A DNA stretch of 47,799 bases from Rotaria socialis (lineage: Eukaryota): the NCBI GenBank assembly GCA_905331295.1, contig CAJNYD010000075.1:1-47799 (forward strand), read 5' to 3'. A program made the position numbers and the translations under genes. Each line of letters starts with the position of its first letter. The stretch's first letter is position 1. Below the pieces are notes generated by a model that did no database searches, was not told the origin of the DNA, and was given only the letters and a program-made list of their open reading frames with translations. Positions 1,286 through 43,911 of this stretch are shown piece after piece.

Positions 1286-3658
1286 TTATTGGATAAAAAA
1301 TCGTTGAACACGTTCATTATCCCGATCAACGACATAGAGATTACCATGTTGATCGAAAGACAAACCAACGGGGTAGTCGAACTGATTTGCTCCTGCTCCT
1401 CGACCATTTCCACCCACAATTACAGTGCTTTCTTTCGCTCCTTGGGTCCAACGTATTACACGCTGATTCCCCTGGTCTGCTACATAGAGTCTACCCAACC
1501 TATCAACGACGATTCCGACAGGATACTGCAATTGTGTCAGAGCACTCCCTGCGCCTTGTCCTCCAGCGACCACAATACCTTCTTTTGCACCTTTCTTCCA
1601 TTTCATTACACGATGATTGTCGCTGTCTGATACGTAGACTGAATGATCTCGATCGACAAAGAGAAATGTCGGTCCGTTGAGTTGATTGAGTTCAGCACCT
1701 TGTCCACTACCGCCAGCCACGAGAGTGCCAATGTTATCACCCAATTTATATCGTCTTACTTCATGTTTTCCATAGACAGAGACGTAGAGATATCTCTGCT
1801 CATCCATTGCTAATCCAAAACAACCGATGGTATCGATGAGTATTTCACCTTGTGTTGTACCACTACTACGAGACCATCGTACAACTCGGTGATTCCCTGC
1901 ATCACAAATAATGAGACTATCCGTCTCTTTGTCAATTAATACATCAGTTGAAACACTCAATTGATTCAATCCATTTCCTTGGAATCCACCAGCAGCAACA
2001 ACTTGTCCATTCGTTGTATCATCGTTCTTCCATTGCACAATACGACAATTACCGTAGTCAGCAATAACCACTGTTTGGTCATCATCAACAAAGAGACCAT
2101 GAGGGTAGTTGAGTTGATTAGTGCCACCCCATCGCCCGTTGCCTCCAGCAATAGTCCCTCCGTTCTGTGACCATTTAGCATTAGCAGGAATATTAACTAG
2201 AAGAGAAAACATAAGAATAAAAGGAGATCTCTCCCTCTATCGCGCTGAAGTGTGGGCGTGATTCTTCTGCTAATCTATACCCACACCCAATCATGAAGAT
2301 AATTAATCGATCAATCGAAATCGACCCTTAAGAATAGGTTTCTCAGTGGTGAATTGCATTATGGCTATACAAAAACTATTTAGTACCTATAAATTGAAGA
2401 TTATTCGTGCGATATACGGATTCTTGCTTCGCATCGCATTTCGTGTACGAGTGAAACTCGAATACCATCTAGTTTTAGCTCTTAATTTACGGAACACCAA
2501 CACCATTTTTTAGGAGAAAACAACCTGATCGGTAGACGAACACTTTGACTAATTCTGAAATTCAATCACAGGCTATTATAGCTTTCAGAATCATACCCAA
2601 TTTCATTAAGTAAGCTATGAAATTTCTTCATTTGCTTTAAAGAGAAAATAGTAGACCGCAATTTTTCCAGCTATAACTGATTCTGCTCATCTCATACCAG
2701 TACACTTTTCTTACAGGCGACGTCCGTGCTTATATGCAAAGAAAAAAGTAGTTAAGGAGCGAAAGACAATCTGATAATTCTTAGGAGAAACTTGCATTAT
2801 GAGAGTAAAAGGAGAATTAATTTCATAGATGAATTGATGAAGAACGCAATACAACACAACATTTCGCACAACACAAGAATGCAACAGCACAATATTTCTG
2901 CTTTTACTAGACGGATACCGTACCTGTGCGTATATCTCCCGATGCCGATCCTGTATCTGTGCGTATCTCTTCCGATGCCGATACCGTATCTGTGGGTATA
3001 TCTTCCGATGCCGATCGCATATCTGTGCAGACAACGTTGTCGGCGCTACCAGTGTTAGTATAACCAGCATTACAGGTGCATACCATTGCAAATGTAGTTG
3101 GGTCTTCTGAACAAAGAGCATTTGGATCATATCCGCCATTGTTGTCGTCATCGTAGTAGCCTAAAAGAGAGTAGTGGTTGTGAGGGTGTTCGTATCAGTA
3201 CCTGTGCGAATGTCGATGTGGACATGGCTAGTATCGTTCTTTGCTAGTCGACACGGATGATAACTAAATTTCGGAGAGAGTCGGAATTACGTGTATTTGC
3301 CTAGAGGTCCTGTTCGTCCGAATTCCTGAATTTTCAAAAATTTGATGGAATGTGTTCTGTGCATGAGACAGGTTTCGAAATGTTCAATATCACGCCAAAG
3401 GACGTATTCTCGCTAGATTGAAAGTGATATTGTTTACCAGGAAATTTATTGTCGTTGCATTAAGATCAAAGTACCAAGGAAAACCCATGCTACTGTAGGT
3501 ATAGGTTGGACAAGTGTCGTTCGTAAATCTGCAACTTAATGTTATTGATGTGATTCGGCATGAGGCAATAGGGTGGAATAGCTAAGATTGAAATTATGGT
3601 AGATTATTTCACTTGCAAAAGTTGGCAACATCATAGATGCAAGCAACAATATCAGCAT
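1286..3658 (-). CDS. Secreted protein: signal peptide, Cys-containing N-terminal region, degenerate EGF-like domain, 11-aa repeats and NHL-repeat beta-propeller. Exons 3658-3617, 3581-3438, 3412-3291, 3263-3202, 3160-2924, 2196-1286
   Basis: The last exon is a clear NHL propeller (QLNYPHGLFVD, LYVADQGNQRV, YPVGLSFDQHGNLYVVD) behind acceptor tctcttctag. Exon 3160-2924 encodes NNGGYDPNALCSEDPTTFAMVCTCNAGYTNTGSADNVVCT and joins it in phase 1. Upstream exons join in frame by manual splicing to start MLILLLASMMLPTF-LFHPIASC. The NHL exon is high confidence; the 5' exons are moderate. Confidence 0.75.
2246..2288 (+). repeat. Telomere-like inverted-arm cassette (copy A), in the last intron of the NHL gene
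   Basis: tgaagtgtgggcgtg-attcttctgctaatcta-tacccacaccc; near-identical in reverse complement to the cassette at 7158-7206. Confidence 0.8.
2914..3028 (-). repeat. 33-bp tandem repeat, about 3.5 copies, coding (D-x-x-SAS-x-D/E-I-R/P-T)
   Basis: Units start at 2914, 2947, 2980 and 3013 (gat(a/c)c.gta(c/t)ctgtg.gtat.tct.ccgatgcc). Confidence 0.9.
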
Positions 3659-5733
3659 GCGCTTGGTTCTTTTCTCAAGCATACAGAAATGAATTTCGTT
3701 GAAAAATTCATCAGAAAAAAGAAAGTGAAAGCATTTTTGGGATTGCATGAACAAACGTGATTGTTGAACTTTATGTTATCAACTCGGGTTGTCTTAGATG
3801 ACATGAAAGTGTCGCAAAACTATAACGAAAGTAAGAGAACTGAGCGACAGTTCTTATTTTGTTTAGGAAACAAGTTGAATCATTCAGATCAACCAATCTG
3901 CTAGAAGTGTAGCTATCACAACATATATTTTCATTATACAGCAGAATATCAAAGGTCTATAAGATTTAATCTATAAACTTACTTTGTGCAAATCCACCGT
4001 GAAATGCTTGTAACAAGAATACCAGCAATGGTAACCATACATAAAGCAAACAACCATATAATGCCATTTTGCGAACCAACAGCTTCGATTTGTATGAGTT
4101 GGAAAATCTTTTGAAAATGAAAAAAAAACGAGGATTTATAGTACTCGATAAATCTGGCGCAGCGAAAGGGAGCACATATTGAAGAAACAATCGAGCGTGA
4201 TCGCGTAACAGCTTGTGTCCATTAAGTTGCATGATTAGGGGCCAGGCAGATTTCACACATGTGTGTTTGATGAATAGTTAATGATTTGAAAAATCAACGT
4301 CGCATTTTAAATTAATCTAGAAATAGATTTAATAGCATCCCACGTTGTTGTCAAGTACTTTTTTCTGGGTACAATCAAATTTCCAGGATTTTCGTTATCG
4401 TGTCTTCAAGGTCTCCACCTTCAGAAATACGTTTTTTTTTGTAAAACATCGTAAAAGCAAGTTCATAATCATAATAAAAGTCATCGAAAAATGTATCGTT
4501 TTAGATCTTAAAATTTTTGCTGCAACATCAATACATTCACATTATTCTTCTATCAAGATGTGCAACAAGATTTTAGACACCGGTTTGTAAAAGTTTGGTA
4601 ACACGTATCATAGACCTGCAGTTTGTTTTTTATGAGTTTTATTATACTAGTATTTCATACAAGTAATTATATGCGTAGCTTCTCAAAAGAGATACTTTTT
4701 AATTAAGCATGCCGCTATTTAAAATCCTATTGCATGTGAAAATCTTACAGCTGGTTAAAACTATTAATAGTTAATAAACCTATTATATACTTATGCAAAA
4801 TCATGCATATCGATTTTAAATTATCTTCGAAAAGAAATAATTTTTTGAATTAAACAAACAGTTTTTATGTTTTTCTTTCATATTTATTAAAAAAAATTGG
4901 CTATTAAAAATAGTACATCTATTTCTAACATTATAGCATTCTTCAGTTACTTCCTTTTATTCTTTCTAATTCTGGTCTCTAACTGTTCTTTTTTTCAATC
5001 CTGCTCAAACCATATATGAGAAGCAATTTAAGATTTCGTTTGAATAAATATTAAGGTATTCCTGTAGGTATTTAAAATTATATATCTTTTCAGAACTATC
5101 TGTCTATTTAAAAAAAAGAGGAAAAGAGTGAAATAATAAACACTATGTAAAACTTTTATTTAGAATCATATATATGTATATTAAAATTATTTCTCAGAAA
5201 AAAAGATTTGCTTCAATGATACAAACAGTTTATCTATTCGTTTATCTTTAAATCTGTGTATCTATTAAAATTTGTGTATAACTATTTAATTTTTGGAATA
5301 GCTTTTAAAAGATAAATATTGTTATTAAATAAAATACAGTTACTTCTTGCAAAATAAATTAAAATTTATTAAATATTCTATCGAAATATGATGCTTTTTT
5401 AATCTATTATGCAAAATAATTTAATATGAAATTAAAAAAGAAAAAATTCATTCGATGTTTACGATAAAACTTTTCAAGTCCTTATGGGTGTATATTTCTA
5501 TATAAATACATATATCTGATATACTATATACTTATTTTAAATTACAATATATTACACATTTTTTATCTAAAATGAACAACCATTCTTTTTCAAATAAAGA
5601 TATCAAACATACATCAATCGTAATGGCTAGTACAATGTATTAGAAAGTAAAAATTGTTTTGAATACTATCAAAAATCTAATCTTATATCATTCTTTTTTA
5701 ATATCAGAGTTCAACAATTTACCAATATATATA

Positions 5734-7157
5734 CAGTAAAACCTCTCTTATCTGAACACTGTCGGTACTTTCAAAAATCGTTCAGATTAACAGGGTGATT
5801 ACAAAGGACGGGGGTCTGTAGAAATATAGAGATTTTTCGAATTAAATGGCACTATTAGTTCACTTCTGATGAACTGTTGTAATTTATTTATATAAAAAAG
5901 AATTATTTCACAAGAAATCCATAAGATTAAACAGGTACATATTTCAAATAATCCAGAATAGATCTTTGTTTTGATAAAGTAGAATCGAGGAGTGCATCAG
6001 TTGATTTAGACTATAATTCAATAATGAACGAATGTAATTCTGGTTGTTGCATTGTCGAGAAAAAGCGCAGACGACGAACTAGGTCTTAACATTCAGATAA
6101 GGAAGGTGGATCTTCACTTGGAACATCGTCATTCAGTTGATCTTCATTACTATCCCCATCATCATTGATAATTCCGCTAATTACTAATAATTTATTATTC
6201 GAATCATTCCATTCGTTAAATGATGGAGCATTATCATCAATACTCTGAAACAGTGAAACGTAAAAAATGAAAAATATTTTTCAAAATTTCTCTCCCACAT
6301 CTCACCACATAATATCATAGCCAGACATTGGTTTTCCACTGATGGTTAAATGTCTCAATACTCGATCTAATTCTTCAATTGATTTATCTTCTGCAGAAAT
6401 AATTTCATCTGTTATTGAAATTTGTTGTGATGCATCGATTCCATCGATAACAGAAATCTTTTCAAAACCGGCTGATTTGAATGTGTTCCTTATTGTTGTT
6501 TCTGACACTGCTTCACATGCGCCTTAAATCCAATAGACAACATCTAAAGCAGTGATATTAATATCGTCGGCCGTTACAGCAACACCAACACTGGTGATTA
6601 TATGCTTGACTAGATGATGTCGGTAATAAACTTTGAATGCTCGAATAACTCCTTGATCCATCGGTTGAATCTTTGCTGTCGTGTTTGGTGGAAAGATTTT
6701 TAACTTGATATTTTCTAATTGTACATCTGGAGAATGAACTGGTGCATTGTCAAGGAAGAGTGGAATGTGTCTTTTTTGTTTCTGCATAATCAAATCAGAA
6801 TCTTGCAATCATTCAGTAAAAAGTTAACAAGTCATCCGAGAGCTACGATTACTGTACCATAAGACGGGCAACTTCTTCAAGTCAATATTTCTGAAACATC
6901 TAGGCCGGGCTGATTTAACTATAACATGAACAAAAAAAGAGGTACAATAAAATAAAAATTGATGAAGACTAACATACCAATGACAACTGGTTTCAACTTT
7001 TCATTTTCGGCCCAATTGGTGCACAACATCACGGTATAGCGTTCCTTTGATTTATCGCTATTTCACAATCATTTCTGTCTACAGTTAACGATCGATCAGG
7101 CATCATCTTGCAAAAAAGTCCAGTTTCATCGCAATTTAATATGTCGACAGGATCATA
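5734..7157 (-). mobile_element. pogo/Tigger-family DNA transposon, degenerate and 5'-truncated, with an intron-containing DDE_1 transposase
   Basis: TA followed by TIR CAGTAAAACCTCTC at 5734. Minus-strand fragments include YDPVDILNCDETGLF, KLKPVVI/KSARPRCF, LFLDNAPVH, FPPNTTAKIQPMDQGVIRAFKVYYR and TIRNTFKSAGF, with stops and frameshifts. GT-AG introns at 6977-6919 and 6305-6245. Homology ends abruptly at 7157. Confidence 0.9.
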
Positions 7158-7206
7158 GGGTGTGGGTGTGGGTATACATTAGCAAAAGAATCACACCCAC
7201 ACTCAA
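7158..7206 (-). repeat. Telomere-like inverted-arm cassette (copy B), at the pogo / NHL-fragment junction
   Basis: gggtgtgggtgtggg-tatacattagcaaaagaat-cacacccacactcaa. Confidence 0.85.
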
Positions 7207-7286
7207 CGCATTACACGATGATTAAACAAGTCTGCTACATAGAGTGTACCTAACGTATCGATGAAGAGTCCATTAGGATAACACAC
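7207..7286 (-). pseudogene. Isolated ~80-bp fragment of an NHL-repeat gene
   Basis: Minus strand reads CYPNGLFIDTLGTLYVADLFNHRVMR. It is homologous to, but different from, YPVGIVVDRLGRLYVADQGNQRVIR in the gene at ~1450-1530. Confidence 0.85.
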
Positions 7287-7287
7287 T

Positions 7288-7377
7288 TGGGTGTGGGTGT
7301 GGGGTGTGCTAGAAATGCAACTGGTTGTATCTCTCGTATGTATGAATTGAAAGAACGCCCACACCCACACCCTCAAG
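7288..7377 (-). repeat. Telomere-like inverted-arm cassette (copy C), at the NHL-fragment / RT-fragment junction
   Basis: tgggtgtgggtgtggggtgtg, then a ~46-nt spacer, then acgcccacacccacaccctcaag. Confidence 0.85.
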
Positions 7378-7819
7378 ATAGTAAGATTGCATCAATCTTG
7401 AGATTTCTTATGGCACCATTCTTCAAATAATTTGATGCGATCATTTCGTGGTATCATGGTGTACAGATTGGTAACGTCAAAAATGACGAATAACATCGAT
7501 ACCACTGATTTAAGTTGTGTTTCGTGCCACTTTCAGGTAGAAAGCCGACAAAAGCTCGTTTAGAAAGTTAGAAACACAGCACTGTAAATCGTTGATAGGA
7601 TATGATCGGTCGTAGTGGCACATGCGGTTGATAAGAAGAACAAAAAGACAGATGATAATATTCAATGAACCTTTTGATTCGAAACTTACTTTGTGTGCTA
7701 TGGAAATAAAGTATGAATGAAGTAGCTCACATTTTGTTCTATCAGGCATCATTAGTCTCCATTGTTCCAAAGTGATGGTTTTCCTGTCTTTCAGATGATT
7801 CAATAACGACATGACTGAA
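7378..7819 (-). mobile_element. Degenerate Penelope-like (Athena/Terminon-type) reverse transcriptase fragment with an intron remnant
   Basis: Minus strand reads MMPDRTKCELLHSYFISIAHK|gtaagt ... VPLRPIIS ... VSNFLNELL ... FDVTNLYTMIPR, matching PLE RT N-terminal motifs and the first catalytic-Asp motif. Contains stops and frameshifts. Confidence 0.8.
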
Positions 7820-7909
7820 CTTGAGGGTGTGGGCGTGGGTGTTTCTCTGCACTTTGCCCACACCCCACACCCCAAACCCACAGCCACAGTCACAGCCACA
7901 GTCACACCC
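7820..7909 (+). repeat. Telomere-like inverted-arm cassette (copy D), at the end of the RT fragment
   Basis: cttgagggtgtgggcgtgggtgt-ttctctgcactttg-cccacaccccacaccccaaacccacagccacagtcacagccacagtcacaccc. Confidence 0.85.
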
Positions 7910-9057
7910 GTCTCCTATTGTTTTCATTATGTTTTTCAAGGTTATGAGGAACTGGAAAAATATACAAAGGTGCCAATTCTAGAATAATAATAAAAAGTAA
8001 ACTGAATCATTCTTGGAAAGGTATCCATTACGTCAAAAATTGTCATAACAGGCATACGAGTCGATCTGCTTTTGGGTCATTTTCAATTTATAATTTTCTT
8101 CTTGGATTTGTTGTGCTTCTATTATGCAGCCTCATGACGAGTATTTTATTTTCAAATAAAAAAGACGAGAAGCATCGGGAAAATTAATTTTGCATTGATT
8201 TCATTTTATTATTTTTGACTCAAACACATTCACATAGTTTATTTTCTCGATTAAACAATGAAAATGAAATATAAAATCATACGTAAAAATACTAATGTGA
8301 ATAGGGTAGTCAAAAAGAAAAAAACTTTTCTATGAAATAAAGCAATGAAAAGAATTGTCTGTTTACTATTCATTATCGAGTGAAACAACAGTCATCTTTG
8401 AGAGAGTGTAAATTGTTTTTTATTATTGTGATCCAAAAGAATATCTTTGTAATTAAAATGTTATTCTCTGATCATCTGCTTTTAGAGAAGTGGATAAAGG
8501 AAACGCAGTGAAATAAACATGAATAAATGTTTCTACGTACAGTAGATGTATGAAACCAACTATCTTAGCCTTGTTCATTACTTCTCATGTTCTTTCAATA
8601 TAATGTTGTTCAATCAAGCAACACAGTGCATTTCAAAGCTATCATAATTTAACCAAAAACAAACAAACTTGCACTTTAAGTCAACAATATATGAGTTTGG
8701 CCTTGTCTGATCATGCCTAGTGTGATAAAAGGCGAGTGAGACAGAAGCAAATTTATAAGGTATCGGAGAAAAAGAATTAAATTTCTTCAACAACATTATA
8801 TTCATAAAAATTTCATTATACTACTGATATAAGAGATTCGATAGCCTTTACAAAGAATACAAGCGTACTTATATAGTTTTGCAACGATTGACAATGAAAA
8901 CGTTAATATATGCTCATGTTACCGTTACACCACGATCAGACAGAGTATTTCAGACATGGTTATATAATAAACAACTATCGAACATTCACCGTTTTTTTTT
9001 AAGTTACAGGTAAAACTCTTCAATAATACGCAAATTCATACAATCGTCGATTTATCA

Positions 9058-11114
9058 ATGATCAAGAAGCATTCAAATCGTGCTAAGCATTTATTGTCCA
9101 AAAATTCATTATTCTCATCCAATCATCAGCAACATGTCGTTTCTGAGCCCATTTCTTCAGTAATATCAACAGATATGGAATTGTCATCACAACATAATCA
9201 TCAGTAAGACAAAAAATTCTCAGAACAATTCCATGCATTATTGTAAGAAAAGGTTACTATATTATATGTCATTTGCTAAAAAGGAATTACTTAACTGGAT
9301 GTTGAAACATGTGATGCAATATTCGAAAATCTTTGATCCATGATAATAAGTTTAATTGGATGATTCTAAATATGTGTTCTCTTTACTGTAGGATATCAAA
9401 AAATAGATTATGGATTATTTCTCTTGTAATAATACTTGTGATAGCCGGTTTCATTGCTCTGGTCATTGGTATTTATGCGCTGATATATCCAATCGGAAGT
9501 ATGACAAGTAAAAAAATAGTTGCTTTTCTTCAAAGTTAAAAATTGATTCTATCATGAATGAAATAGCTTGATCTATATGTTTTTAATCTGAAAAAAATTG
9601 TGAAATAACTTTAAGTCATTTATATCTAGCAGCAACAACGAAGCACACGATAACAACAGCCACTACAATGGGCTCGACAACGACAACTACAGCTACTAGT
9701 AAGTTGTCAACTCGTGTTGATGTTCTGAATCCAGAGTAATTGGAGTTCATAAGGCTTTTACTTAAGTGTTTCAGTACTGCAATAGGACAGATTCAAGTGC
9801 TTTGAACAAAGGAGTCTATGCCATACTTAGTATTGTAAATTCATTTATATTTTCGAAGAAAATAATGAGTATAAATTTCATGGTAGAAGTTTGAAGGCTT
9901 TCCTCTTTACAGGCGTTAGTAACAAAAAAACTTTCGAACAGTAAAGGTCATAGAAGTTCTCAAAGCTTACATCGAAATCTGATTCTTTGCAAATAGATTT
10001 TCGATGCTTTAAATGGTCTATATTCTTATTTTGCTTTAAATAAAGGTTTACATTTCAGATAACAGTGATGATGAGATACGCACTTTGGTAAAATTAGACT
10101 TCTCTTAAAAGTTAATGCAGACGCTTTTAAATTTATCAAGATATGTATGGTGGACTTATTTACCAGTTAATTCACTGTTTTCAAATGATAATAATAACGC
10201 TATATATAAAGAAAACAACATATCCTATGTAGCGAAAACCAAAGATTGAAAGCATTGAGGCGTTGTACATGTGCACTGAGAGGAGACCTCTACTTACTCG
10301 CATTCACACTCTCACACTAACACCTATTGAAGTGGAACCTAAGCTAGAGAATCTTATTAATTGTATTTTAATGAACTATTATCGAAACTTCTCTCTAGCT
10401 ACAACAACTACGGCATTCGTCCCTCAGTCATGTACTTCTGGAAGTCCAACAATGTTACTGAGCTTATTGAATCCTAGTGCCTTTTCATATACAGAATATA
10501 GTTACTCCTATACACCAACAACAGCCCAAGTAACAATCATGATTCAATTTGAACAAGATCCGAGTTCTTTCTCTATTGATGATGTGTCCGTCGTCAACCC
10601 GTCTAGCCCACAACTCCTTAGCAATGGTGGTTTTGAAACCGGAAGTCTTGCACCCTGGCAACATGGCACTGTAGTTAGTGGTAACGTCGCAAGTGGATGT
10701 GGACACTCTGGATCATATTGTTATAACGATGCAATCGTTGGTCAAACAGATAACATTCATCAGACATTTTCAACAGTACCAGGAAACACACTAAATGTTT
10801 CATTCTATTTACAAAACAATTCCGGAGGATCAGTTATCATCGCACGCGCCTGCATTTATCCACCCAGGACGAGCTTTACGACGGTAAATCGCCGTATTTG
10901 GCCGTATTACATGGCTCCGTATTACGATCGTAAATCTCCGTGTCGTAATACGGTGAAATACGTAAAGCGCCGTATTTCGCCGCATACGGCACGGAGATTT
11001 ACGATCGTAATACGGAGCCATGTAATACGGCCAAATACGGCGATTTACCGTCGTATACGACCGTGTATGTTCGACCTGGGCATATTGAAACAATTTCCTT
11101 CTAATTTGACATGA
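9058..11114 (+). CDS. Type II membrane protein with Thr-rich stalk and C-terminal carbohydrate-binding-like (galactose-binding fold / CBM_4_9-like) domain; C-terminus altered by a MITE insertion
   Basis: Exon 1 starts at ATG 9058 (donor uncertain). A TM exon at ~9392-9507 reads LWIISLVIILVIAGFIALVIGIYALI, and a Thr-rich exon lies at ~9630-9698. The last exon starts at 10399 (SIDDVSVV...QLLSNGGFETGSLAPW...VSFYLQN). Splice phases are compatible. Confidence 0.7.
10863..11080. mobile_element. Palindromic MITE (CCC...GGG termini, apparent 2-bp CA target-site duplication; CMC/EnSpm-like by inference)
   Basis: Termini cccagg and cctggg; long near-perfect internal inverted repeat (tacgacggtaaatcgccgtatttggccgtattacatggctccgtattacgatcgtaaatctccgtg and its reverse complement); CA on both flanks. 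Confidence 0.9.
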
Positions 11115-11372
11115 ACAACTATGAGGAGTCCAAGGAACCGAGACATTGCACACAATTTTTGATTTTTGATTAGATATCATAATCTTCTAAATCATTTGTT
11201 TTGACAGCAGCGAAAATAAATACTTAACGAATATAAAGAGAGACTACCATTTTGACGAAATTTACTTTTGCAGAAAAACTGCAAAAATAAATTCCGTATA
11301 GTCTAACCTTATATTGAATTATAATGTCATTGTGTAGTTACATTATAGCACTATTACATAGTGACGATATAC

Positions 11373-11435
11373 AGGGTGCTGGTGTGGGTAACTGCTCTCT
11401 TAACATGCCCACACCCCACACACACACACACACCC
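11373..11435 (+). repeat. Telomere-like inverted-arm cassette (copy E)
   Basis: agggtgctggtgtgggt-aactgctctcttaacatg-cccacaccccacacacacacacacaccc. Confidence 0.7.
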
Positions 11436-12576
11436 AATGAAATATCATTAAAGCATTAGTTTGATCTTGAGTATGAAATTCAATTATTAGTGGATTCCAA
11501 ATTCCAAATATATTTTAAACAAATCGGTTTTGTCATGAAGTTGGGTTCAACATTAGTTATACTAAAGTTCAATAAACTCACCGATGAATCCAACTAAAGC
11601 CGAACGTCAAGTATTTATGACATTGGTACTAGTGAGAGCTAGACCTACAAACTGCAACTACAATTAAACATTAAACATTTATTCTCTAATTCTAATTTTT
11701 ATTTTATTTGTCTATCTTTTTCACACTCTATGATTTTAAAAACGTTGTTCTCTCTTTCGATTCTTATTCACTTATAAAAAATTGTTTAATATTGACTCCG
11801 AAAATTCTTTTTCGTAACATTTTGAATTATTTTTAATGTATAGTTCATCAGTATACTCATTTATCTGTAATTTTCTCTTTCGTCCTTTTACTATTATGCA
11901 GAGCCGTGAAGAGTGTTCTATCATTAAAATAAATAACACGAAACGCGTCGCCGAAATAAAATTCTGCATTTCTTTTAATTCAAGCACAATACAAAATTTA
12001 GTATATTTATTTTTGACTTTGATCGATTGCTGAAAAACAAGAGTTGGGAATAGCAGATTAATTTGGCTGCTTTGTTAAGAGATAGGTTAATCTGTTTTCT
12101 AATTGATAAAGTTGGCCTCTATCTTCCAGAACCACACTTTTCGCACGGTCAGTTTTATACAGGATGTTCAAGAGCAAAAGGAATCTAATGGTTTAAAAAT
12201 TCAAGTAAAAGATACCACTAGACAGGGGAAAACGGATAATGGGCAAACAGTAATGGATAATGTTGTTCATCGGGAGATTTTTTCGTGAATTCCATATGCC
12301 TAATGTTCTGAGTCTATAACTTTAGTATTTCCTTTTTTATTTAATAATTCAAATAGCAATCCAAAAGTTTTTATTAAACCAATTTTTTCTATAATATTAA
12401 AGTTCAGTTGTTCACATGGGCCTTTAATTTATAATTATAATTGATATAAAAATTTATCTGTGATCGTTGTGGCTGTTTCGACATAAAAGTGTTGGTTCGA
12501 ATTTTTTCATTTATTTTCGAAGTGATATTAAGCTTTCAGAGTTTCATTTATATTCGAAGTCGAATTAGGTAACTCA

Positions 12577-14094
12577 TCAATCCGATACCAGGCTATAAAT
12601 TTTTGTATTAGCACATTTAGGACATGCTTTACCACCACAATCTATGTCAGTTTCATCTTGATTCTTCACACCATCGCTGCAATTGGGTACTACAGAGCAG
12701 ATAAAGAACTACATAATATTTTATATGAAGAAAAATATACCTTGACAGGTTTTAGATTTGCACACTTCACTAACACAATCTGAGTCGGCTTTGCAGGTTT
12801 TTCCATTGGGACATTTTGAACATTTTTCACCACCACAATCTATATCAGTTTCATTACCATTCCTATAACCATCGGTACAAGTGGGAGCTAAAAAGAGAAA
12901 AAGTTAGGAAAAAATTCGATTCATAGGTAGACTAAAATTCTCATGGCATGTTCACCATTATGTATGAGTGTTCTGAAAAGTAATCCTGAAAGTCAACCTT
13001 TTCTCAAACTTATGTAGATGCGAAAAGAAAGATTGATATAGCGATTGTTAAGACGATTCAAGAAAACTTTTCTAGTGAACTTCATTTGAATTGTTTTTTT
13101 GCAAAAACGTGGAACTATTGTTTGAACGATTTATTTTTATTATTACATCGATTTCAATGGTTGAGTATTGTTCAAATCGACCTCCATATATTTAATTGCC
13201 AGCAACATTTTGAGATTTGGATATGGATATGCGAGTTGCATGTATGATGAAGGGCAATAGTCAATTCAAAATGCTTTCGTAAATTATCATCAAATCCCAA
13301 AGGATCCGTCCTACGAACTGTAATACATGGGACGAAGTTTAATCGAGACGTGCACTTGTATCCTTTCTCGAGTCGAATAGTCTGAATAAATGACTAAAAG
13401 CGTCACTTTTTAGTTTAAATCTAAACATTAGCACTTTTTGAGTATCATATGTCTTAAAATCGATTTCCGAATTCAATATTAATTGTACTCCATCTAAAGA
13501 TGATAGACAAAATCCGTTCGAAATTGATTTTGGTAGAAAATTGACACACGAGGGTAGAAATGAACAAAGAGAAGGACAGATAGCTTCGCTAGAAGAATTA
13601 AAAATAGTTTGTTTTATATGTCTAAATAAATTATGTCGCTGTATTATCGGTTGAGTCGGGAAAGTTATGAATAATTAAAATGTGGTAGGTGAAGATGATG
13701 ATTTTTGCTTGAACATCATCCTCACACCCATAACTATATTCACCCTCAACTTTGTAAAAGTTCTGCTCTTATGCAGTTAGCATACCTTTACATCTTTTCT
13801 TGTCGCAATTACCGCTCGAACACTGATCGTTATATCTGCAAGGGGCTCCATCATTACCGCTCTTCATATCCTTGCTGTGAATCACTGAAAATCGACCTAG
13901 CTGAAGATCATCATCCAGCTAGAAGAACACTACAGAAGTAACAAGAGAATATGTATATAGATGAAGGTAAAGACACAAACCATTTGGGCCACATTGTCGC
14001 TTTTGAAATCTTCCTGTGATGACATAGCCACATTCAAACAAAATACAAGAACACCAATGGTTAGCCACATCCACCTATCAACAAAGATTTTCAT
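12577..14094 (-). CDS. Small secreted Cys-rich repeat protein (CxDGxxNxxETDIDCGG repeats). Exons 14094-13981, 13918-13786, 12887-12741, 12689-12577; last repeat truncated
   Basis: Manual splicing gives MKIFVDRWMWLTIGVLVFCLNVAMS...GAPCRYNDQCSSGNCDKKRCK-APTCTDGYRNGNETDIDCGGEKCSKCPNGKTCKADSDCVSEVCKSKTCQ-VPNCSDGVKNQDETDIDCGGKACPKCANTKIYSLVSD*. All introns are GT-AG with compatible phases. Missed by the ORF track. Confidence 0.85.
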
Positions 14095-15208
14095 GAACTC
14101 TCTTTCATATCACTGATCTAATTCGGTAATTGAAGGTCACAATGATAAACTGGTATACTCTTGCAGCTACTAATGGCTACATGAAATATTCCACCAAAGT
14201 ATACAGCAGTGTTGAAGAAAACAAATAATCATTTATGATTGTTTTCATTCTCAATTTTTACTTAAAATATACATTTCATATGATGGTTTCAGCTTTTAAT
14301 GACTAAAAACTTCTATCAAAATATTTATTCCAACAATAAAGATTCTATTTTTTCCGATGACCAGTGTAGTAGTACAGGTAAATTTTTCTTATAGTATATG
14401 TTGCGATAAATCCTTCAATCTTGAGGATTGGTTGTGGGTAACAGTGAGAGATTACTATAAACTCTCGCTCACTAGTCAACATTCATCACATTCTTACATT
14501 CACGGTAGTAACCTTTGATAAAATTGTTACCTAAAAAAAGTATTTTTCAGCCTTATCGCAGCCTAGAATCTGCTGATGAAGTATTGTGAGATCGATATCG
14601 ACACTTAGTCATGACATATACACCTGAAATTTCCCAACTATTCTTATGTTAATGGCCGCCAACTCTAACTGAGAATAGGATCTCTGATATTCGTTTTGTT
14701 CATACAAATCTCATCCTAAAGAGCCGTTCCTATTTTTTCTCGTGTATCACTAATTTCAAACGATTACGGCCCTTTTTCTTAACTCAATTCGTAGAATGAA
14801 AAGAAAAATTTAGCTTTTAAACGAAGCTAGATAAAAACAGTAGACTTACCTTTTTACGTTTCCATGACGCCTTTGACGTATTTGCATTATAATACCCGCA
14901 AAATTCGAATTAATCGAAAAATCACACTGAATATTTCCTGGAAACAGATATATATGTGAATAGATATGAATATATACATGTAGCGATTGATGTAACAGAA
15001 AAACTATTGAGTTTAGATATGACAAATAATATCCGTGACATCAATTAATCTATAGTGCATCATTCTTTTACAATATCGCGATTTTTTGTGTCTCTCTACT
15101 TCGTCACGACAATTAAAAGTAGAGACATATGAAACTAGATATTAATTGTACAGAGAGGAACGCAAATCCTGATGGCTTGATTTTTTTCTCTACTCCTCTA
15201 GTAATCAT

Positions 15209-15410: not shown

Positions 15411-16670
15411 ATAGTCATTTAATCGCGTGGGAAGTACAGTTCATAGTAAGAATATAATCGAAATATCTATCTATAGTGCTACTAAAAATATATTCCTTAG
15501 AGGAGAAAAAAATCTAAAGGAGTGAAAAATAATGTTGATCATACATACTGTTAAAACCTGATTAAAAGCGCATAGCGCGCGTTACTTTTATCTAACAGCC
15601 ACAGATGGCAATGTAAACCATACTAATTGGAAATCAGCACAACAAAAAGCGAATCCCTTCGCCAATTCGATACTAATTCCAATCGTTTGAAGGCCTTTCA
15701 CACTAATTTAAAACAATAATAACTATCAGTAATGCAAAAAGCCTACCAATAAAATGCATGCGACAGGTGGAAAAAAAGAAATATGATAGTGCTATGGTTC
15801 GATTTTATTTCAATTTTTCTAATATTAATTTAAAAAATAGAGTATATGAGCGCCATTAGAATGATTACTTCGTTTTCTTGATCATTTTAAAACGACAATA
15901 GAGACAACGAAAAAAGACTACCTTTTGTGTTTGAAAATTGAACTTATTGGAATATCACGTTGCTACTGCTAATTATCTTATTAATGCAGTTGTTTTTACG
16001 ACGAATCTGAATATGTGTTTTTTTTTAAACTTCCAATGAAACGAAATATTTTTTTAATTGAAAAATCATCAAACTCGAGGGTAAGGGTATGGGTATAATA
16101 ATTGAAGACAAGTGATTTGTATCGTAGAAACCATCTTATTTATTTAAACATGTCTTAACTGTATTGATAGAATGAGTAGATTTCATGTTTGCATGTGTCA
16201 TATTTGGTGAGAAGAATTTGTTTTTCATTTCAGAACCGCAAACTCTACGATATGAGACGTGACTTTTCACCTTGGCCGTCGGAGCAAAGAATATGTGAGG
16301 ACATCAAAGACGTTGTCTAGATTCCTAATCAAAAAATAGAAAGAGATTCATATAATTGATGTTCCAAACATTCTTTATCTGTCACTGAATTCTTACAATG
16401 TAGCTCCATTATTGGGATCCCGGAAAATATTTCTGTTATAAGTTTATGTTTTCCTGAAGATCTTTATTATTAATTCAATAAATTTCTTTCAAAAGCAGCT
16501 CTGTTAAATGTCAATTGTTCAGCTTTAGAAGATTTTATGGTACACTATTACATTGCAATACAATAGTCAATAACATCACTTCGCTGCAATAGTAGGCACT
16601 GCTATGGTGAAGTATCGTGATTCTCTCTCATTGTCATGCGTAGCATGATTTCTGCATTTGCAACATAGAA

Positions 16671-16730
16671 TTGAGGGTGTGGGCGTGTACCCTCACCTTT
16701 CAGTCCAATAGACACACCCACACCCTCGAG
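16671..16730. repeat. Telomere-like inverted-arm cassette (copy F), with the conserved TYGAG end on both arms
   Basis: ttgagggtgtgggcgtgt-accctcacctttcagtccaataga-cacacccacaccctcgag. Confidence 0.85.
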
Positions 16731-23121: not shown

Positions 23122-23234
23122 TTGTTATTGCTGTTATTGTTGTTTTTGTTTTTGTTTTCGAAATAGAAAAAATAACAGAATTAACATCTGCTTTTTTTTC
23201 ATGTTGTTATTTTTTTCTATTCTGAAATTTATAG

Positions 23235-27579: not shown

Positions 27580-28420
27580 TAGTAAAACCTCTTTACATGG
27601 GCACCCCTATAACACGGGGCACCTCACTTGTATGGACACTGGGCGGAACGACCGATCAATTTTTGCTGAGTATGAGTCTCTCTAACAAGTGCACCTCTAA
27701 CCTCGAATAATGGGCATTGTTTTTTCAGTCCATAGTGCACATTTACCTCTCTCACATGGGCAGATATAGTGAATGTTATAATAAGAGTATAAATACTATT
27801 GCTTTTCTTACATCACATATTGATATCATGTAAAAAATGACGTCGTGCCATTATCTTCCTATTGATAAGAAGATTGAATTGGCCAACGACTACGGTGATG
27901 GACCTGGGCTATCATAACGCGTAAGCTATGTGAGAGATACAAGGTATCGAGGGTGCGGGTGTACTTCTTTTATGAAATCACGCCCTACATCCACACCCCA
28001 CACCCAACCTCCTTCGCTCGTTGATGCACTTGAAATGGTTCGAAAGCTCCATCTACTCGCCAACCGGAACTTCATCAATTCGTCACTAATCTGAAATCAA
28101 AACTTACTGATGCCTACATCGAATCAAAAACTAACCGGCAAAGTTCAATTACAGATTTCTTTCGAAAAGCTTGACTGTAAATATGATGATAGAAAATAAA
28201 GTTAAATAAAAAAACTAATCAAATAAATTATACTACAATATTGGACACTATTCAAGATATAAATACCGATTGTATATATAAGTATCGGTACTGTCTATTA
28301 TGTTGCTTGTGAAAACATTAGTAATCAGTATATATTAAAAATAACTCTATAACGCGGGCACCGTAGGATGGGCGATTTTAAAAAGCCCCGTGGTGCCATC
28401 CAAGGGAGTAATTTATAGAT
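27580..28420 (+). mobile_element. Internally deleted pogo/Tigger transposon, related to the 5734-7157 element
   Basis: TA followed by TIR-like (T)AGTAAAACCTC. The HTH N-terminus remnant (MTSCHYLPIDKKIELANDYGDGPGLS...KLCERYKVS) is joined via a cassette to the C-terminus (QPPSLVDALEMVRKLHLL...ELHQFVTNLKSKLTDAYIESKTNRQSSITDFFRKA*). The right TIR is decayed, so the end is approximate. Confidence 0.85.
27947..28005 (+). repeat. Telomere-like inverted-arm cassette (copy G), at the internal deletion breakpoint of the pogo element
   Basis: tcgagggtgcgggtgt-acttcttttatgaaat-cacgccctacatccacaccccacaccc. Confidence 0.8.
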
Positions 28421-36746: not shown

Positions 36747-36949
36747 CTATATGCATTCTTTGTCTTATTTATGCTCGCTATCAGATCTTCGAACTCTTTT
36801 TTATATTCTTTTTGCTGTGTGATTTACCTTTTGGTTAGAATTTAAAATCTTGTTTTTTTTTTGTTTTCCAATTAAACTTATTTAAGAATAATTTATCTAG
36901 ATTACAGTATCAATTTTTCAGAGATCACCAAAATAGATTTTTATGAAAC

Positions 36950-42900: not shown

Positions 42901-42959
42901 GTCTCGATCGACAACAACAGCCACAGACTGATGATATAACAGTCAATCTTTTTCTATAA
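36950..42959 (+). CDS. NUP107: Nuclear pore complex protein Nup107 (Nup84 family), divergent, multi-exon
   Basis: ERDSWLLW, DPQLRMAKAVQGWLQ, WEKTCHFL, LDFDA, FSLLRVGEYSKAKSICKSTGYHWLAALL, VEGNQKRIQW, YERAIYGLLCG, TYADYLWAY, LLRFASHICLFL, GWLVD, LRHKYIPML. The 5' exons are less certain. Confidence 0.85.
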
Positions 42960-43359
42960 AAATTAGTTAATTGATGTCAGATATGAAATAAAATTTGTGA
43001 TGTGTGTTATCTATATGTGTCCAATAAATAGGTTTAGTTTCTTTTTCGTTTCATAAAAATCATTGAAATTGTGGAAAAAAAACAATATTACACGAGAGGA
43101 AATTGCTCTATTGTAATTAACTGGGAAAGAATTGAAGTTTTCTATTAGACTAAGATAAATAGTATTGCTACTCAAATGCATCGGATGTTGCGTATTTGAA
43201 AATAATCTATCGAATGTGATAATCGTTGGTTGTTCACAATCTTTTAATACCAATTGAAAAATATATTTGCAGTTCTTTTAAATCGTTTTATTATGGTGTT
43301 GTTGTATGGATGACCAAAAAAAATGTGGATTTTTATCAAAATAGTCTGGCGTCCACTGG

Positions 43360-43911
43360 ATGGCAGAAATGAATTACAAAGTAATTCTAAAATATGAATT
43401 ACAAAATAGTTCAAATTCTGTTACTGTCTTTCAAGTGACTAAGCAGGTACCATCAGGTACTAGCAGGTACTAGTAGGTACTAGAAGGTACTACCAGCTAC
43501 TAGCAGGTACTAGTAGGTATTAGCAGGTACTACCTGGTGTGGGTGTGGGTATGGGTGTAATTGGTCCCTAAAGTGAAATTACGCCCACACCCACACCCTC
43601 AAGGTTTGAAAAATCGGATATTTCTTGTGATGCTAGCGTTGAAATTGAATCTAGATCTATTGCACAATTTATATAATAGGAATATGTAAACATACAAAGT
43701 AAAAATATATGAGTTCTTTTATTCCAATTTAAATAACATAGCCTTTCTTTTTATGATTGTCCATTCATGTTCCAAGTCGAATTCGGCTGCTACCAATCTT
43801 CCAGTACCTTCTAGTACCTGGTAGTACCTGGTAGTACCTTCTAGTAATAACTGATACATGTATTAGTTGTATGTGTAAATTTTGAATTATTTTGTAATTC
43901 ATTTCTGTCAT
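43360..43911. mobile_element. MITE-like foldback element with imperfect TIRs and inverted subterminal 10-bp repeat arrays (AGGTACTAGY)
   Basis: atggcagaaatgaattacaaa at 43360 vs tttgtaattcatttctgtcat ending at 43911. The array at 43444-43533 has its reverse complement at 43802-43846. Confidence 0.75.
43535..43603 (-). repeat. Telomere-like inverted-arm cassette (copy H), ending the 10-bp array
   Basis: tggtgtgggtgtgggtatgggtgt-aattggtccctaaagtgaaatt-acgcccacacccacaccctcaag. Confidence 0.85.

What the first reader, a model, noticed from the sequence alone, without database searches (positions are those of the whole stretch)
2246..43603. Family of tiny telomere-armed hairpin cassettes at rearrangement junctions: candidate DNA-break repair scars or a new micro-element
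Seen in sequence: at least 8 clear cassettes (2246, 7158, 7288, 7820, 11373, 16671, 27947, 43535) of 43-90 bp share one layout. A G-rich arm (GGGTGT)n is followed by a variable 14-46 nt spacer and a C-rich arm (ACACCC)n, so the arms always face inward. Most have a conserved end, (C)TYGAGGGTGTGGGYGT, on one side, in either orientation. I see no target-site duplication. In the five copies whose flanks can be identified, the cassette sits at a discontinuity. Established knowledge: TGTGGG and TGAGGG are reported bdelloid telomeric repeats, the conserved end reads TGAGGG-TGTGGG, and bdelloids tolerate extensive double-strand breakage. Inference: this geometry is what would result if telomeric repeats were added to two broken ends (by telomerase or an Athena-type RT) and then joined. 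Alternatively, a short templated linker or a deletion-causing foldback element could produce it. I do not know of a description of such a system.
Basis: partly seen in the sequence, partly recalled or inferred. Interest (0 to 1): 0.9.

Follow-up and report, generated by a model that had tools for sequence, protein, structure and literature searches.

The report
Inward-facing telomere-repeat scars at DNA joins
Eight short units of two inward-facing telomere-repeat runs sit exactly where truncated genes and transposons are joined in this bdelloid rotifer sequence, and they are likely scars of broken DNA ends that were each extended from a telomerase-type RNA template and then rejoined.

Summary
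All 8 cassettes exist at the stated places (43-93 bp, spacers 14-46 nt). All 8 run G-rich arm, spacer, C-rich arm. The motif is far above chance (16 matches against 0.29 expected). No target-site duplication exceeds the random-site control.

The window is Rotaria socialis, a non-desiccating bdelloid.

Seven junction sides in 5 cassettes could be checked. Six abut a sequence cut off at the arm: an NHL-gene fragment, two pogo-like transposase genes and a repeat family. Paralogue contigs continue differently at two of these cuts. The seventh arm starts inside the minisatellite of a foldback element.

The five junctions with a traceable flank end in TTG, TT or GGT, which is primer-like microhomology.

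The arms fit one linear template: (C)TTG-A-GGG-TGTGGG-(TGTGGG)-CGT-GATT(T)C. This would be one pass over an RNA reading ACG-CCCACA-CCCUCA-AG, with read-through. It resembles vertebrate TERC-ITS repair insertions but is two-ended.

Not shown: empty sites, the RNA itself, and the species' own telomere repeat. At least one cassette, and perhaps a second, rides in a multi-copy transposon, and two are near-identical, so not every copy is an independent event.

This scan has noted the same structure in other bdelloid genomes.

The parts
2246..2288 (.). Cassette 1. Arm TGAAGTGTGGGCGT (2246-2259), spacer 2260-2279 (20 nt), C-arm 2280-2288.
   Evidence: The right edge at 2288/2289 is where 27 (X1) and 16 (X2) paralogue contigs diverge from the window (table 7).
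7158..7203 (.). Cassette 2, an inverted copy of cassette 1 (41 nt, 92.7% identity). G-arm 7158-7175, spacer 7176-7192, C-arm 7193-7203.
   Evidence: Its left flank is a truncated pogo-like gene and its right flank is an NHL fragment.
7285..7377 (.). Cassette 3. G-arm 7289-7308, spacer 7309-7354 (46 nt), C-arm with conserved end 7355-7377.
   Evidence: Bridged by X2 record 18 (7230-10757, 1 difference).
7820..7910 (.). Cassette 4. CTTGA plus G-arm 7820-7842, spacer 7843-7856 (14 nt), long degenerate C-arm 7857-7910 containing a CACAGCCACAGT repeat.
   Evidence: Bridged by X1 record 2 (0 differences) and X2 record 18.
11373..11437 (.). Cassette 5. Degenerate G-arm 11373-11390, spacer 11391-11407, C-arm 11408-11437 with a (CA)n run.
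   Evidence: It lies just right of a high-copy bin (10673-11339, table 2).
16671..16730 (.). Cassette 6. The conserved end is present on both arms (16671-16686 and 16714-16730); spacer 27 nt.
   Evidence: A repeated tandem array starts at its right edge.
27947..28007 (.). Cassette 7. TCGA plus G-arm 27947-27962, spacer 27963-27979, C-arm 27980-28007.
   Evidence: Its right flank is a transposase C-terminal tail that starts at the arm edge.
43535..43603 (.). Cassette 8. G-arm 43535-43558, spacer 43559-43580, C-arm with conserved end 43581-43603.
   Evidence: (I5: 25-nt arms, 88% complementary). It lies at the inner edge of the left arm of a foldback element.
13716..13752 (-). Degenerate solo arm with the TTGAGGG end (read on the minus strand).
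14421..14445 (+). Degenerate solo arm, CTTGAGG..GGTTGTGGGTAAC.
16073..16096 (+). Degenerate solo arm, CTCGAGGGTAAGGGTATGGGTAT.
7204..7283 (-). 80-bp fragment of an NHL-repeat gene, held between cassettes 2 and 3.
   Evidence: 78% identical to 1449-1525 (alignment). Joints 1428->7205 and 7281->1531, and a loose end at 7204, appear in paralogue contigs.
1289..2236 (-). NHL-repeat gene of a very high-copy family. Its upstream end lies 10 bp from cassette 1.
   Evidence: Pfam NHL, E = 2.6e-29. Word depth up to 6e4 against a baseline of about 50-70.
5936..7157 (-). Decayed pogo-like (DDE_1) transposase gene, cut off at cassette 2 about 110 bp upstream of the DDE_1 domain start.
   Evidence: Pfam DDE_1 pieces. 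tblastn of P0114 against 6760-5936 gives 42% identity. ORF list.
28008..28174 (+). C-terminal tail of a DDE_1 transposase (with one frameshift), beginning at the edge of cassette 7.
   Evidence: P0114 (254 aa, PF03184) is 85% identical over 40 aa. The QPPSLVDALEM homology starts at 28005/28008.
43358..43915 (.). Foldback/TIR element with a 10-bp minisatellite in both arms, present at roughly 10-25 times the baseline depth. It carries cassette 8.
   Evidence: and (depth 500-1100 against about 40). In both X1 and X2 a contig has a differing telomere-like insert, not an empty site, at the same place (joint 43471->43537).

Best explanation
The cassettes are likely repair scars. Wherever two DNA 3' ends faced each other, each would have been extended by a telomerase-type reverse transcriptase copying one short RNA template, and the two extensions would then have been joined. 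Such facing ends arise at a chromosome break, or at the gap left inside an excised or broken transposon.

Shown directly:
- the G-arm, spacer, C-arm polarity in 8 of 8 cassettes;
- the position of the arms at truncation points of identifiable sequences;
- the absence of a target-site duplication;
- flank ends of TTG, TT or GGT at the five junctions with a traceable flank.

Inferred: all 16 arms and 3 solo arms can be read as copies of a single RNA stretch, 5'-..GAAAUC-ACG-CCCACA-CCCUCA-AG..-3'.
- A DNA end finishing in ..TG that pairs with the CA at the 3' end of this template would give TG|A-GGG-TGTGGG. This is the conserved 'TYGAGGGTGTGGG' end.
- An end that pairs with the inner CA would give TG|GG-TGTGGG. 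These are the arms that start TT|GGG.
- Realignment would add further TGTGGG or TGTGGGG units.
- Running past the template boundary would add CGT and then GATT(T)C.., which is the conserved start of several spacers.
- The two extended ends would then anneal by chance microhomology and be filled in, so the second arm appears as ACACCC on the same strand.

Some cassettes were probably then multiplied passively, by transposition of the element that carries them or by segmental copying.
For: 1. Polarity is inward in 8 of 8 cassettes. With random arm orientation this has a probability of about (1/4)^8. That figure is my own arithmetic.

2. Truncated flanks.
- Paralogue contigs diverge from the window exactly at 2289 (27 and 16 contigs) and at 7204 (35 contigs). 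What they carry there is not the window's sequence from the other side of the cassette (table 7).
- The 80-bp NHL fragment at 7204-7283 is bounded by two cassettes.
- The pogo-like gene on the minus strand stops at 7157, about 110 bp before its DDE_1 domain.
- Transposase-tail homology begins at 28005/28008.
- The G-arm of cassette 8 begins inside a minisatellite unit.

3. No TSD exceeds the null.

4. Junction microhomology. The flank-derived 3' ends are TTG (7158 right, 7288 left, 27947 right), TT (2246 right) and GGT (43535 left).

5. A shared linear order in the arms.
- The outer end CTYGA is found on 8 arms plus 3 solo arms.
- TYGAGGG is followed by telomere-like repeats in 8 of 9 occurrences.
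- Seven arms have GGGCGT as their last repeat or next to it. After four of them (2246 left, 27947 right, 43535 right, 7288 right) the spacer starts GATTC, GATTTC, AATTTC or TCTTTC. It does not after 16671 left. In 7820 left a GGGTGT unit follows and then TTCTC. 7158 right, the sister copy of 2246 left, has TGT plus GATTC.
- A contig from elsewhere in the genome joins a 27947-type spacer edge to a 43535-type arm (joint 27988->43584, seen in X1 and X2).
- 7 contigs share the sequence up to 43603 and then differ from one another.

6. The two adjacent hexamers of the conserved end, TGAGGG and TGTGGG, are the two telomere hexamers reported for bdelloids (PMC7943196 supplement).

7. Precedents.
- TERC-ITS loci with read-through of the sequence next to the template, microhomology at the break, and one head-to-head Xenopus locus (PMC8537989, passages read).
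- Telomeric repeats and Athena fragments at A. vaga deletion breakpoints (PMC13564844, passages read).
Against: - No allelic, homoeologous or orthologous empty site was recovered. Only part of the joint tables was displayed (15 of 219 rows; 15 of 30).
- The RNA is hypothetical. No telomerase RNA or hammerhead was found in the window, and I found no paper naming a rotifer telomerase RNA (search listing; one review checked for the word 'rotifer').
- Beyond the first 5-7 nt, the presumed read-through sequences differ between cassettes (GATTCTTCTGC, GATTTCATAAA, AATTTCACTTT, TCTTTCAATTC). One template does not explain whole spacers.
- Cassettes 2246 and 7158 share arms, spacer and inner junction (92.7% over 41 nt). 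This points to copying of a finished unit.
- Cassette 43535 lies in a multi-copy foldback element, and 27947 in DNA repeated about tenfold.
- The sharp, shared outer boundary is also what a mobile unit, or an RNA with a fixed 3' end, would give.
- The telomere repeat of R. socialis itself was not checked at chromosome ends.
Confidence: 0.55

Rival explanations
1. The cassette is a small mobile unit of its own. One version is a foldback MITE. The other is a short hairpin-forming retro-unit, such as the 3' tail of an Athena-type endonuclease-free Penelope-like element, copied onto free DNA ends. On this reading the unit, not telomerase acting on each end, supplies both arms.
For: - Imperfect terminal inverted repeats with a conserved outer end.
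- Hairpin potential in 5 of 8 cassettes.
- Two near-identical units in different contexts.
- A sharp shared boundary at 43603, with heterogeneous flanks in 7 contigs.
- Athena elements are reported to carry reverse-complement telomeric repeats next to a hammerhead motif at their 3' ends and to attach to exposed ends (PMC8557442, passages read).
Against: - No TSD.
- Arm length and repeat composition vary from 9 to 54 nt, and spacers of most copies cannot be aligned.
- At the 3 junction sides that could be compared with paralogues, the flanks are truncated rather than interrupted, and part of the 'conserved end' (TTG) is flank-derived.
- No RT domain was found in any ORF of 75 aa or more, and there was no hammerhead match.
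- Terminal addition of Athena, as I recall it from a 2007 paper that I could not open, gives telomeric repeats in direct orientation, not inverted.
Confidence: 0.2
2. Only a few cassettes were ever formed. The present copies were spread by transposition of carrier elements and by segmental duplication. Ectopic recombination between dispersed copies then created the chimeric junctions.
For: - Cassette 43535 lies in a foldback element present at roughly 10-25 times the baseline depth. Another contig of that element has a differing telomere-like insert at the same place (joint 43471->43537 with 25 nt in between).
- Cassette 27947 lies in DNA repeated about tenfold.
- Cassettes 2246 and 7158 are one unit.
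- Cassettes 7288 and 43535 share 33 nt at 91% identity.
Against: - Similarity between cassettes stops at the arm edges.
- Most spacers are unrelated.
- Microhomology of flank ends with the repeat is expected for priming, not for recombination within arms.
- This reading still needs a first mechanism to make inward-facing pairs.
Confidence: 0.15
3. The cassettes are classical head-to-head telomere-telomere fusion points left by chromosome fusions.
For: The orientation is the same as at fusion-type interstitial telomeres.
Against: - There are eight such sites in 48 kb, three of them within 750 bp.
- The arms are only 9-54 nt long.
- The flanks are internal fragments of genes and transposons, including an 80-bp piece, and not subtelomeres.
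Confidence: 0.03
4. The cassettes are assembly artefacts or chance low-complexity matches.
For: Four cassettes lie in repeated DNA where no listed contig bridges them.
Against: - Shuffle controls exclude chance.
- Contigs from two different studies bridge cassettes 7288 and 7820 with 0-1 differences, and nearly bridge 11373 and 16671.
Confidence: 0.02

Closest known systems
TERC-ITS and short interstitial telomeric sequences inserted at double-strand breaks in vertebrates (PMC2246262, seen in the search listing only; PMC8537989, passages read)
   Same: - Short telomere-repeat tracts at internal sites.
- Insertion accompanied by deletion or filler.
- Microhomology between the break end and the inserted sequence.
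- Copied sequence from just beside the template. Type B loci read through the sequence 5' of the template. One Xenopus locus has head-to-head arrays plus a fragment from 3' of the template.
   Different: - Here both ends carry a tract, in 8 of 8 cases. This is the rule rather than a single exception.
- The tracts are only 1-9 repeats long.
- The density is far higher (8 in 48 kb).
- The template RNA is unknown, so the homology to telomerase RNA that defines the class could not be tested.
Neotelomeres and short interstitial (TGTGGG)n stretches in bdelloid subtelomeres (PMC2861651; PMC13564844; PMC8494291)
   Same: The same animal group and the same repeat. Association with truncated transposons, repeat-family genes and foreign-type genes. 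Telomeric repeats have been seen at deletion breakpoints in A. vaga lines.
   Different: The passages I could read describe single stretches or terminal additions. They do not describe a fixed inward-facing pair with a spacer and a conserved outer end. The two papers most likely to show orientation (PNAS 2007 on Athena; MBE 2017 on Terminons) are not held.
Athena / Terminon endonuclease-free Penelope-like elements (PMC8557442; PMC5537684)
   Same: Reverse transcription primed from exposed DNA 3' ends. Reverse-complement telomeric repeats (ACACCC)n in the template RNA. 5' truncation.
   Different: No Athena body, RT domain or hammerhead lies beside any cassette. The spacers are at most 46 nt. 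The inverted orientation is not the expected product of terminal addition (my inference).
Internally deleted DNA transposons formed by interrupted gap repair, with filler DNA at the deletion junction (recalled general knowledge of P, Ac/Ds and mariner elements; not checked in a paper here)
   Same: Cassette 27947 sits beside the C-terminal tail of a pogo-like transposase gene. The rest of that gene is missing on the cassette side. In interrupted gap repair two 3' ends face each other, as the model requires.
   Different: Here the filler is a pair of telomere-type tracts instead of short random or locally templated filler.
Foldback elements and MITEs
   Same: Inverted arms, small size, many copies, hairpin potential.
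   Different: No TSD, variable arms, unrelated spacers, and truncated rather than interrupted flanks.

Membership tests
Telomerase-mediated ITS / TERC-ITS repair insertion | The repeats are the species' own telomere repeat. | tested here: inconclusive
   TGTGGG is the repeat of A. vaga. TGAGGG, with TGTGGG as a minor variant, is the repeat of Philodina roseola (PMC7943196 main text and supplement). The chromosome ends of R. socialis were not examined.
Telomerase-mediated ITS / TERC-ITS repair insertion | One-step appearance at a break, shown by an orthologous or allelic empty locus. | not testable with these tools
   No genome is held. Contigs of a second organism gave no bridging piece at any cassette. 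Paralogue comparisons show truncation at 3 sides but are not empty sites.
Telomerase-mediated ITS / TERC-ITS repair insertion | A flanking fragment homologous to the telomerase RNA. | not testable with these tools
   No rotifer telomerase RNA was found in the literature searches or by Rfam in the window. Only internal consistency was tested: CGT followed by GATT(T)C-like sequence in 4 of the 7 arms that have GGGCGT as their last repeat or next to it.
Telomerase-mediated ITS / TERC-ITS repair insertion | Microhomology between the break end and the first added repeat. | tested here: met
   Flank-derived TTG at 7158 right, 7288 left and 27947 right; TT at 2246 right; GGT at 43535 left.
MITE / foldback DNA transposon | A target-site duplication of fixed length. 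| tested here: not met
   The best flanking repeat is 3-4 nt with shifted boundaries, no better than at 2000 random sites.
MITE / foldback DNA transposon | Clean insertion, with flanks contiguous in copies that lack the element. | tested here: not met
   At 2289 and 7204 the paralogue contigs continue with sequence different from the window's opposite flank. At 7283 the NHL homology ends.
MITE / foldback DNA transposon | Terminal inverted repeats and a family-wide internal sequence. | tested here: inconclusive
   Imperfect inverted ends are present. The internal sequence is shared only by 2246 and 7158 (92.7%) and partly by 7288 and 43535 (33 nt at 91%). The others cannot be aligned.
Athena-type terminal retroelement addition | An Athena body (RT ORF or 3' UTR) with a hammerhead motif next to the (ACACCC)n. 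| tested here: not met
   No RT domain was found in the 67 ORFs of 75 aa or more, all of which were scanned over two calls. No hammerhead match at E up to 1.
Telomere-telomere fusion ITS | Long head-to-head arrays flanked by subtelomeric DNA, one per fusion event. | tested here: not met
   The arms are 9-54 nt. There are 8 sites in 48 kb. The flanks are internal gene and transposon fragments.

The most novel reading that the evidence does not exclude
Bdelloid rotifers routinely patch two-ended DNA breaks and transposon gaps by letting telomerase extend both facing 3' ends before joining them. This leaves an oriented, diagnostic scar. The conserved parts of the scars (CTTG-A-GGG-TGTGGG-CGT-GATT(T)C) are a direct readout of the still unknown bdelloid telomerase RNA around its template, 5'-..GAAAUC-ACG-CCCACA-CCCUCA-AG..-3'. 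That template also explains why bdelloid telomeres use both TGAGGG and TGTGGG.
Probability: 0.35. Interest if true: 0.85.

Novelty: new variant of a known kind. Interest (0 to 1): 0.7.

Why it matters
Bdelloid rotifers are the textbook case of animals that survive shattered chromosomes and that carry patchwork, foreign-gene-rich genome regions.

A sequence scar that marks each rejoined break would let past breaks be counted and dated from genome assemblies alone. It would show how fragments as small as 80 bp, transposon remnants and foreign-type genes get stitched together. It would also connect the neotelomeres reported at A. vaga breakpoints in 2026 with a fixed genomic footprint.

If the conserved arm really is a pass over the telomerase template, it gives a specific search string for the unidentified bdelloid telomerase RNA.

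The presence of many scars in a non-desiccating species bears on whether this repair route depends on desiccation at all.

Tried and rejected
- **Metagenome scan** for the conserved end. All but a few are G+C-rich chance matches, and 0 of 120 have a C-arm downstream. The four A+T-rich loci showed nothing further. This used the only metagenome scan.
- **Viral-contig scan** for both arms. It returned 1 locus, a perfect G+C hairpin in unrelated DNA of about 43% G+C.
- **RNA evidence.** No RNA holder is listed for the stretch.
- **Contigs of a second organism** (X9, X10). They cover the single-copy parts only thinly and gave no piece across any cassette. No conclusion is drawn from this.
- **Rfam at E up to 1**. 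Only weak microRNA-like matches to a palindromic repeat were found, with no hammerhead and no telomerase RNA.
- **Intron reading.** Rejected by eye, because the cassette edges do not fit GT..AG boundaries.
- **Snap-back cDNA hairpin.** Rejected, because the two arms of most cassettes are not exact complements.
- **Hammerhead core inside the spacers.** None seen by eye; the spacers are too short.
- **Terminal inverted repeats around cassette 27947.** No convincing pair was found. The left flank has no Pfam match, so 'internal deletion of one element' is shown there only for the right side.
- **Papers not held:** PNAS 2007 on Athena and MBE 2017 on Terminons.
- **Literature search** for rotifer + 'telomeric repeats' + 'head-to-head'. 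It found 1 paper, in which the phrase refers to Penelope repeats and not to telomeric tracts.

Full report
**What is there.** The window is metazoan. It holds Nop14, Headcase, SRF, PTB and Nup107 exons. It comes from the bdelloid rotifer Rotaria socialis. One ORF is 100% identical over 81% of its length to an R. socialis protein. Another is 93% identical to an R. socialis protein and 82% identical to an R. magnacalcarata protein.

Each is a G-rich arm of TGTGGG-type units, then a spacer of 14-46 nt, then a C-rich arm. Total length is 43-93 bp.

The motif TYGAGGGTGTGGGYGT with up to 3 mismatches matches 16 times against 0.29 expected, and no shuffle reaches that number. GGGTGTGGG with up to one mismatch matches 31 times against 0.79 expected.

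The polarity is G-arm then C-arm in 8 of 8 cassettes. I also found three degenerate single arms carrying the same outer end, at about 13716-13752, 14421-14445 and 16073-16096.

**Not an artefact.**
- Contigs built from the reads of two different studies cross cassettes 7288 and 7820 with 0-1 differences (X2 record 18 at 7230-10757; X1 record 2 at 7626-10099).
- Cassettes 11373 and 16671 are crossed with only 27-29 nt on one side, below the tool's 31-nt rule.
- No listed piece crosses the other four, which lie in repeated DNA.
- One of the two run sets may be the data the window was assembled from.

**Where the cassettes sit.** Bases 1 to about 7337 are repeated DNA. Word depth there is in the hundreds to tens of thousands, against a baseline of 50-70. 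From about 19 kb onward the window is a core-gene region with islands of repeats.

Seven junction sides in five cassettes could be checked. Six abut a sequence that is cut off. The seventh starts inside a repeat unit, and no loss is shown there.

- *Cassette 2246, right side.* 27 (X1) and 16 (X2) contigs of a repeat family match the window from 2289 rightward. To the left they carry a different sequence. It is neither the cassette nor the window's left flank (table 7).
- *Cassette 7158, right side, and cassette 7288, left side.* The 80 bp between them (7204-7283) is a fragment of an NHL-repeat gene, 78% identical to 1449-1525. Paralogue contigs jump 1428->7205 and 7281->1531, and 35 contigs diverge before 7204. 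The alignment shows the gene continuing on both sides in the paralogue.
- *Cassette 7158, left side.* A decayed pogo-like transposase gene runs on the minus strand from 7157 down to about 5936. It was identified by Pfam DDE_1 pieces and by a 42% tblastn match to P0114. Its DDE_1 domain starts about 110 bp from the cassette. I recall that DNA-binding domains normally precede DDE_1, and there is no room for them.
- *Cassette 27947, right side.* A 46-residue ORF matches the C-terminal end of P0114, a DDE_1 protein, at 85% over 40 residues. The homology (QPPSLVDALEM...) begins at 28005/28008, which is the arm edge. The left flank could not be identified, and I found no terminal inverted repeats around it.
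- *Cassette 43535, left side.* The G-arm starts inside a unit of a 10-bp minisatellite. That minisatellite forms the left arm of a 560-bp foldback element at 43358-43915.

No flanking direct repeat exceeds what random sites give. A simple insertion with a duplication is therefore excluded for the sides that could be tested.

**What the junctions look like.** The flank can be traced from a paralogue, a protein match or a repeat unit at five junctions. In each case the strand that carries the G-arm ends in T/G letters just before the repeats:
- TTG at 7158 right, 7288 left and 27947 right;
- TT at 2246 right;
- GGT at 43535 left.

In a genome with about 31% G+C, three exact TTG ends in five is very unlikely by chance. 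That estimate is my own arithmetic. This is the kind of short primer-template match reported at telomerase-mediated insertions in vertebrates (PMC8537989).

**A single linear template fits all arms.** This part is inference. Reading each arm from the outside inward gives two classes.

*Class I* has eight arms plus the three solo arms. They read (C)TYGA-GGG-TGTGGG-(TGTGGG), often ending CGT:
- 7288 right and 43535 right: CTTGA GGG TGTGGG TGTGGG CGT
- 7820 left: CTTGA GGG TGTGGG CGTGGG TGT
- 16671 left: TTGA GGG TGTGGG CGT
- 16671 right and 27947 left: TCGA GGG TG(T/C)GGG TGT
- 2246 left and 7158 right: shortened variants.

*Class II* has eight arms. They start directly with GGG or GG after TT, TTG or another flank end. 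They contain irregular units such as TGTGGGG.

Seven arms have GGGCGT as their last repeat or next to it. After four of them the spacer begins GATTC, GATTTC, AATTTC or TCTTTC (2246 left, 27947 right, 43535 right, 7288 right). It does not after 16671 left. In 7820 left a further GGGTGT follows and then TTCTC. 7158 right, the sister copy of 2246 left, has TGT plus GATTC.

TYGAGGG occurs 9 times in the window, and 8 of these are followed by telomere-like repeats.

All of this is what one RNA stretch, 5'-..GAAAUC-ACG-CCCACA-CCCUCA-AG..-3', would give if copied from DNA 3' ends:
- An end finishing in TG and paired to the last CA is extended to A-GGG-TGT-GGG.
- An end paired to the inner CA is extended by GG, and then realigns.
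- Running past the 5' limit adds CGT-GATT(T)C.

The two hexamers laid down in one pass, TGAGGG and TGTGGG, are the two telomere hexamers reported for bdelloids. TGAGGG with minor TGTGGG is the repeat in Philodina roseola, and TGTGGG is the repeat in Adineta vaga (supplement of PMC7943196). That agreement is the main reason I favour telomerase over an Athena-type element as the copying enzyme. It remains indirect.

**How the pair forms.** Extension can occur only at 3' ends. If both ends of a break are extended, or both nascent ends in an interrupted gap repair, the repeats lie on opposite strands. After joining they read G-arm, spacer, C-arm on either strand. This explains 8 of 8 inward pairs and the absence of outward pairs. 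The spacer would then be read-through from one or both sides plus filler.

Cassette 27947 abuts the tail of a transposase gene whose remainder is missing on the cassette side. This fits interrupted repair of a transposon, although only the right side is established there. For cassette 43535, only the start of the arm inside the minisatellite is shown. No loss of element sequence is shown.

**What does not fit neatly.**
- Beyond 5-7 nt the presumed read-through differs among cassettes, so one template does not account for whole spacers.
- Cassettes 2246 and 7158 are one 41-nt unit at 92.7% identity, including the inner junction, in different surroundings. That is better explained by copying of a finished cassette.
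- Cassettes 7288 and 43535 share 33 nt at 91%.
- Cassette 43535 belongs to an element present at roughly 10-25 times the baseline depth. Another contig of that element has a differing telomere-like insert at the same place.
- Cassette 27947 lies in DNA repeated about tenfold.
- Seven contigs share the sequence up to 43603 and then differ from one another. A contig from elsewhere joins a 27947-type spacer edge to a 43535-type arm. So similar units are common in the genome and have sharp edges.

These points keep a mobile-unit reading alive, and they show that some copies were spread passively.

I obtained no empty site. The genome is not held. The one metagenome scan returned only chance matches.

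**Comparison with what is known.** Short telomeric stretches among transposons, repeat-family genes and foreign genes are a known feature of bdelloid subtelomeres (PMC2861651). Telomeric repeats and Athena fragments were seen at deletion breakpoints in A. vaga lines in 2026 (PMC13564844). Vertebrate ITS and TERC-ITS loci are accepted as telomerase-mediated repair insertions. They include read-through of the sequence beside the template and one head-to-head locus in Xenopus (PMC8537989).

In the text I could search, I did not find the paired, inward-facing form with a spacer and a conserved outer end described as a recurrent structure in rotifers. The two papers most likely to show it are not held.

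Earlier notes of this scan describe the same structure in other bdelloid genomes (Rotaria spp. and Adineta steineri) and reach a similar reading. They gave me the TERC-ITS lead. I treated them as leads only.

**An extra point.** R. socialis is obligately aquatic and does not survive desiccation (PMC7943196). These scars are therefore either old or formed at breaks that have nothing to do with drying.

**Verdict.** The repair-scar interpretation is the best supported (0.55), with the template model as a specific and testable refinement. A mobile-unit origin (0.2) and passive spread from few origins (0.15) remain open. I class the finding as a new variant of a known kind, namely telomerase-type insertions at breaks. 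Interest 0.7.

Noticed in passing
window 10877-11055: A 71-nt inverted repeat, 99% complementary with a 37-nt loop, lies inside ORF 10233-11111. The bin holding it has word depth of about 18,000 against a baseline of about 50. It gives a sub-threshold match to a microRNA model (38 bits against a gathering score of 60). It looks like a very high-copy palindromic mini-element.
   Followed up: partly
window 10233-11111 (+): A 293-aa ORF, 100% identical over 81% of its length to an R. socialis protein. It belongs to a bdelloid family whose distant relatives carry CBM_4_9 and PEP-CTERM domains, so it may be of bacterial origin. It lies in the 3.4-kb block between cassettes 7820 and 11373.
   Followed up: partly
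window 43358-43915: A foldback/TIR element of about 560 bp with a 10-bp minisatellite (AGCAGGTACT)n in both arms, 9 copies on the left and 5 on the right. It is present at roughly 10-25 times the baseline depth.
   Followed up: partly
window 1289-2236 (-) and 1-1200: An NHL-repeat gene of an extremely high-copy family (word depth up to 6e4), preceded by A+T-rich tandem repeats with periods of 16-51 bp.
   Followed up: partly
window 32870-34043: Another repeated island, with depth 1400-2200 against about 50, inside the core-gene region. It has an opposite-strand joint at 33527/33605 in contigs of both studies. No telomere-type cassette is present there.
   Followed up: no
window 45927-46029 and 46374-46477; 47101-47280: A 104-nt inverted repeat pair at 98% identity, and an 88-bp tandem duplication, both beyond the 100-N gap at 44611-44710.
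   Followed up: no
window 16730-16767: A tandem repeat (GGTTAAGGATAGAAATAAG-like, 19 bp) starts exactly at the right edge of cassette 16671. Its copy number varies between contigs (joint 16764->16729).
   Followed up: partly
window 27857-28361: Single contigs at about single-copy depth join 27857 to 27997 (3 letters in between) and 27997 to 28361 (1 letter in between). Both breakpoints fall at the same place inside the C-arm of cassette 27947. These could be allelic deletion variants or other copies.
   Followed up: no
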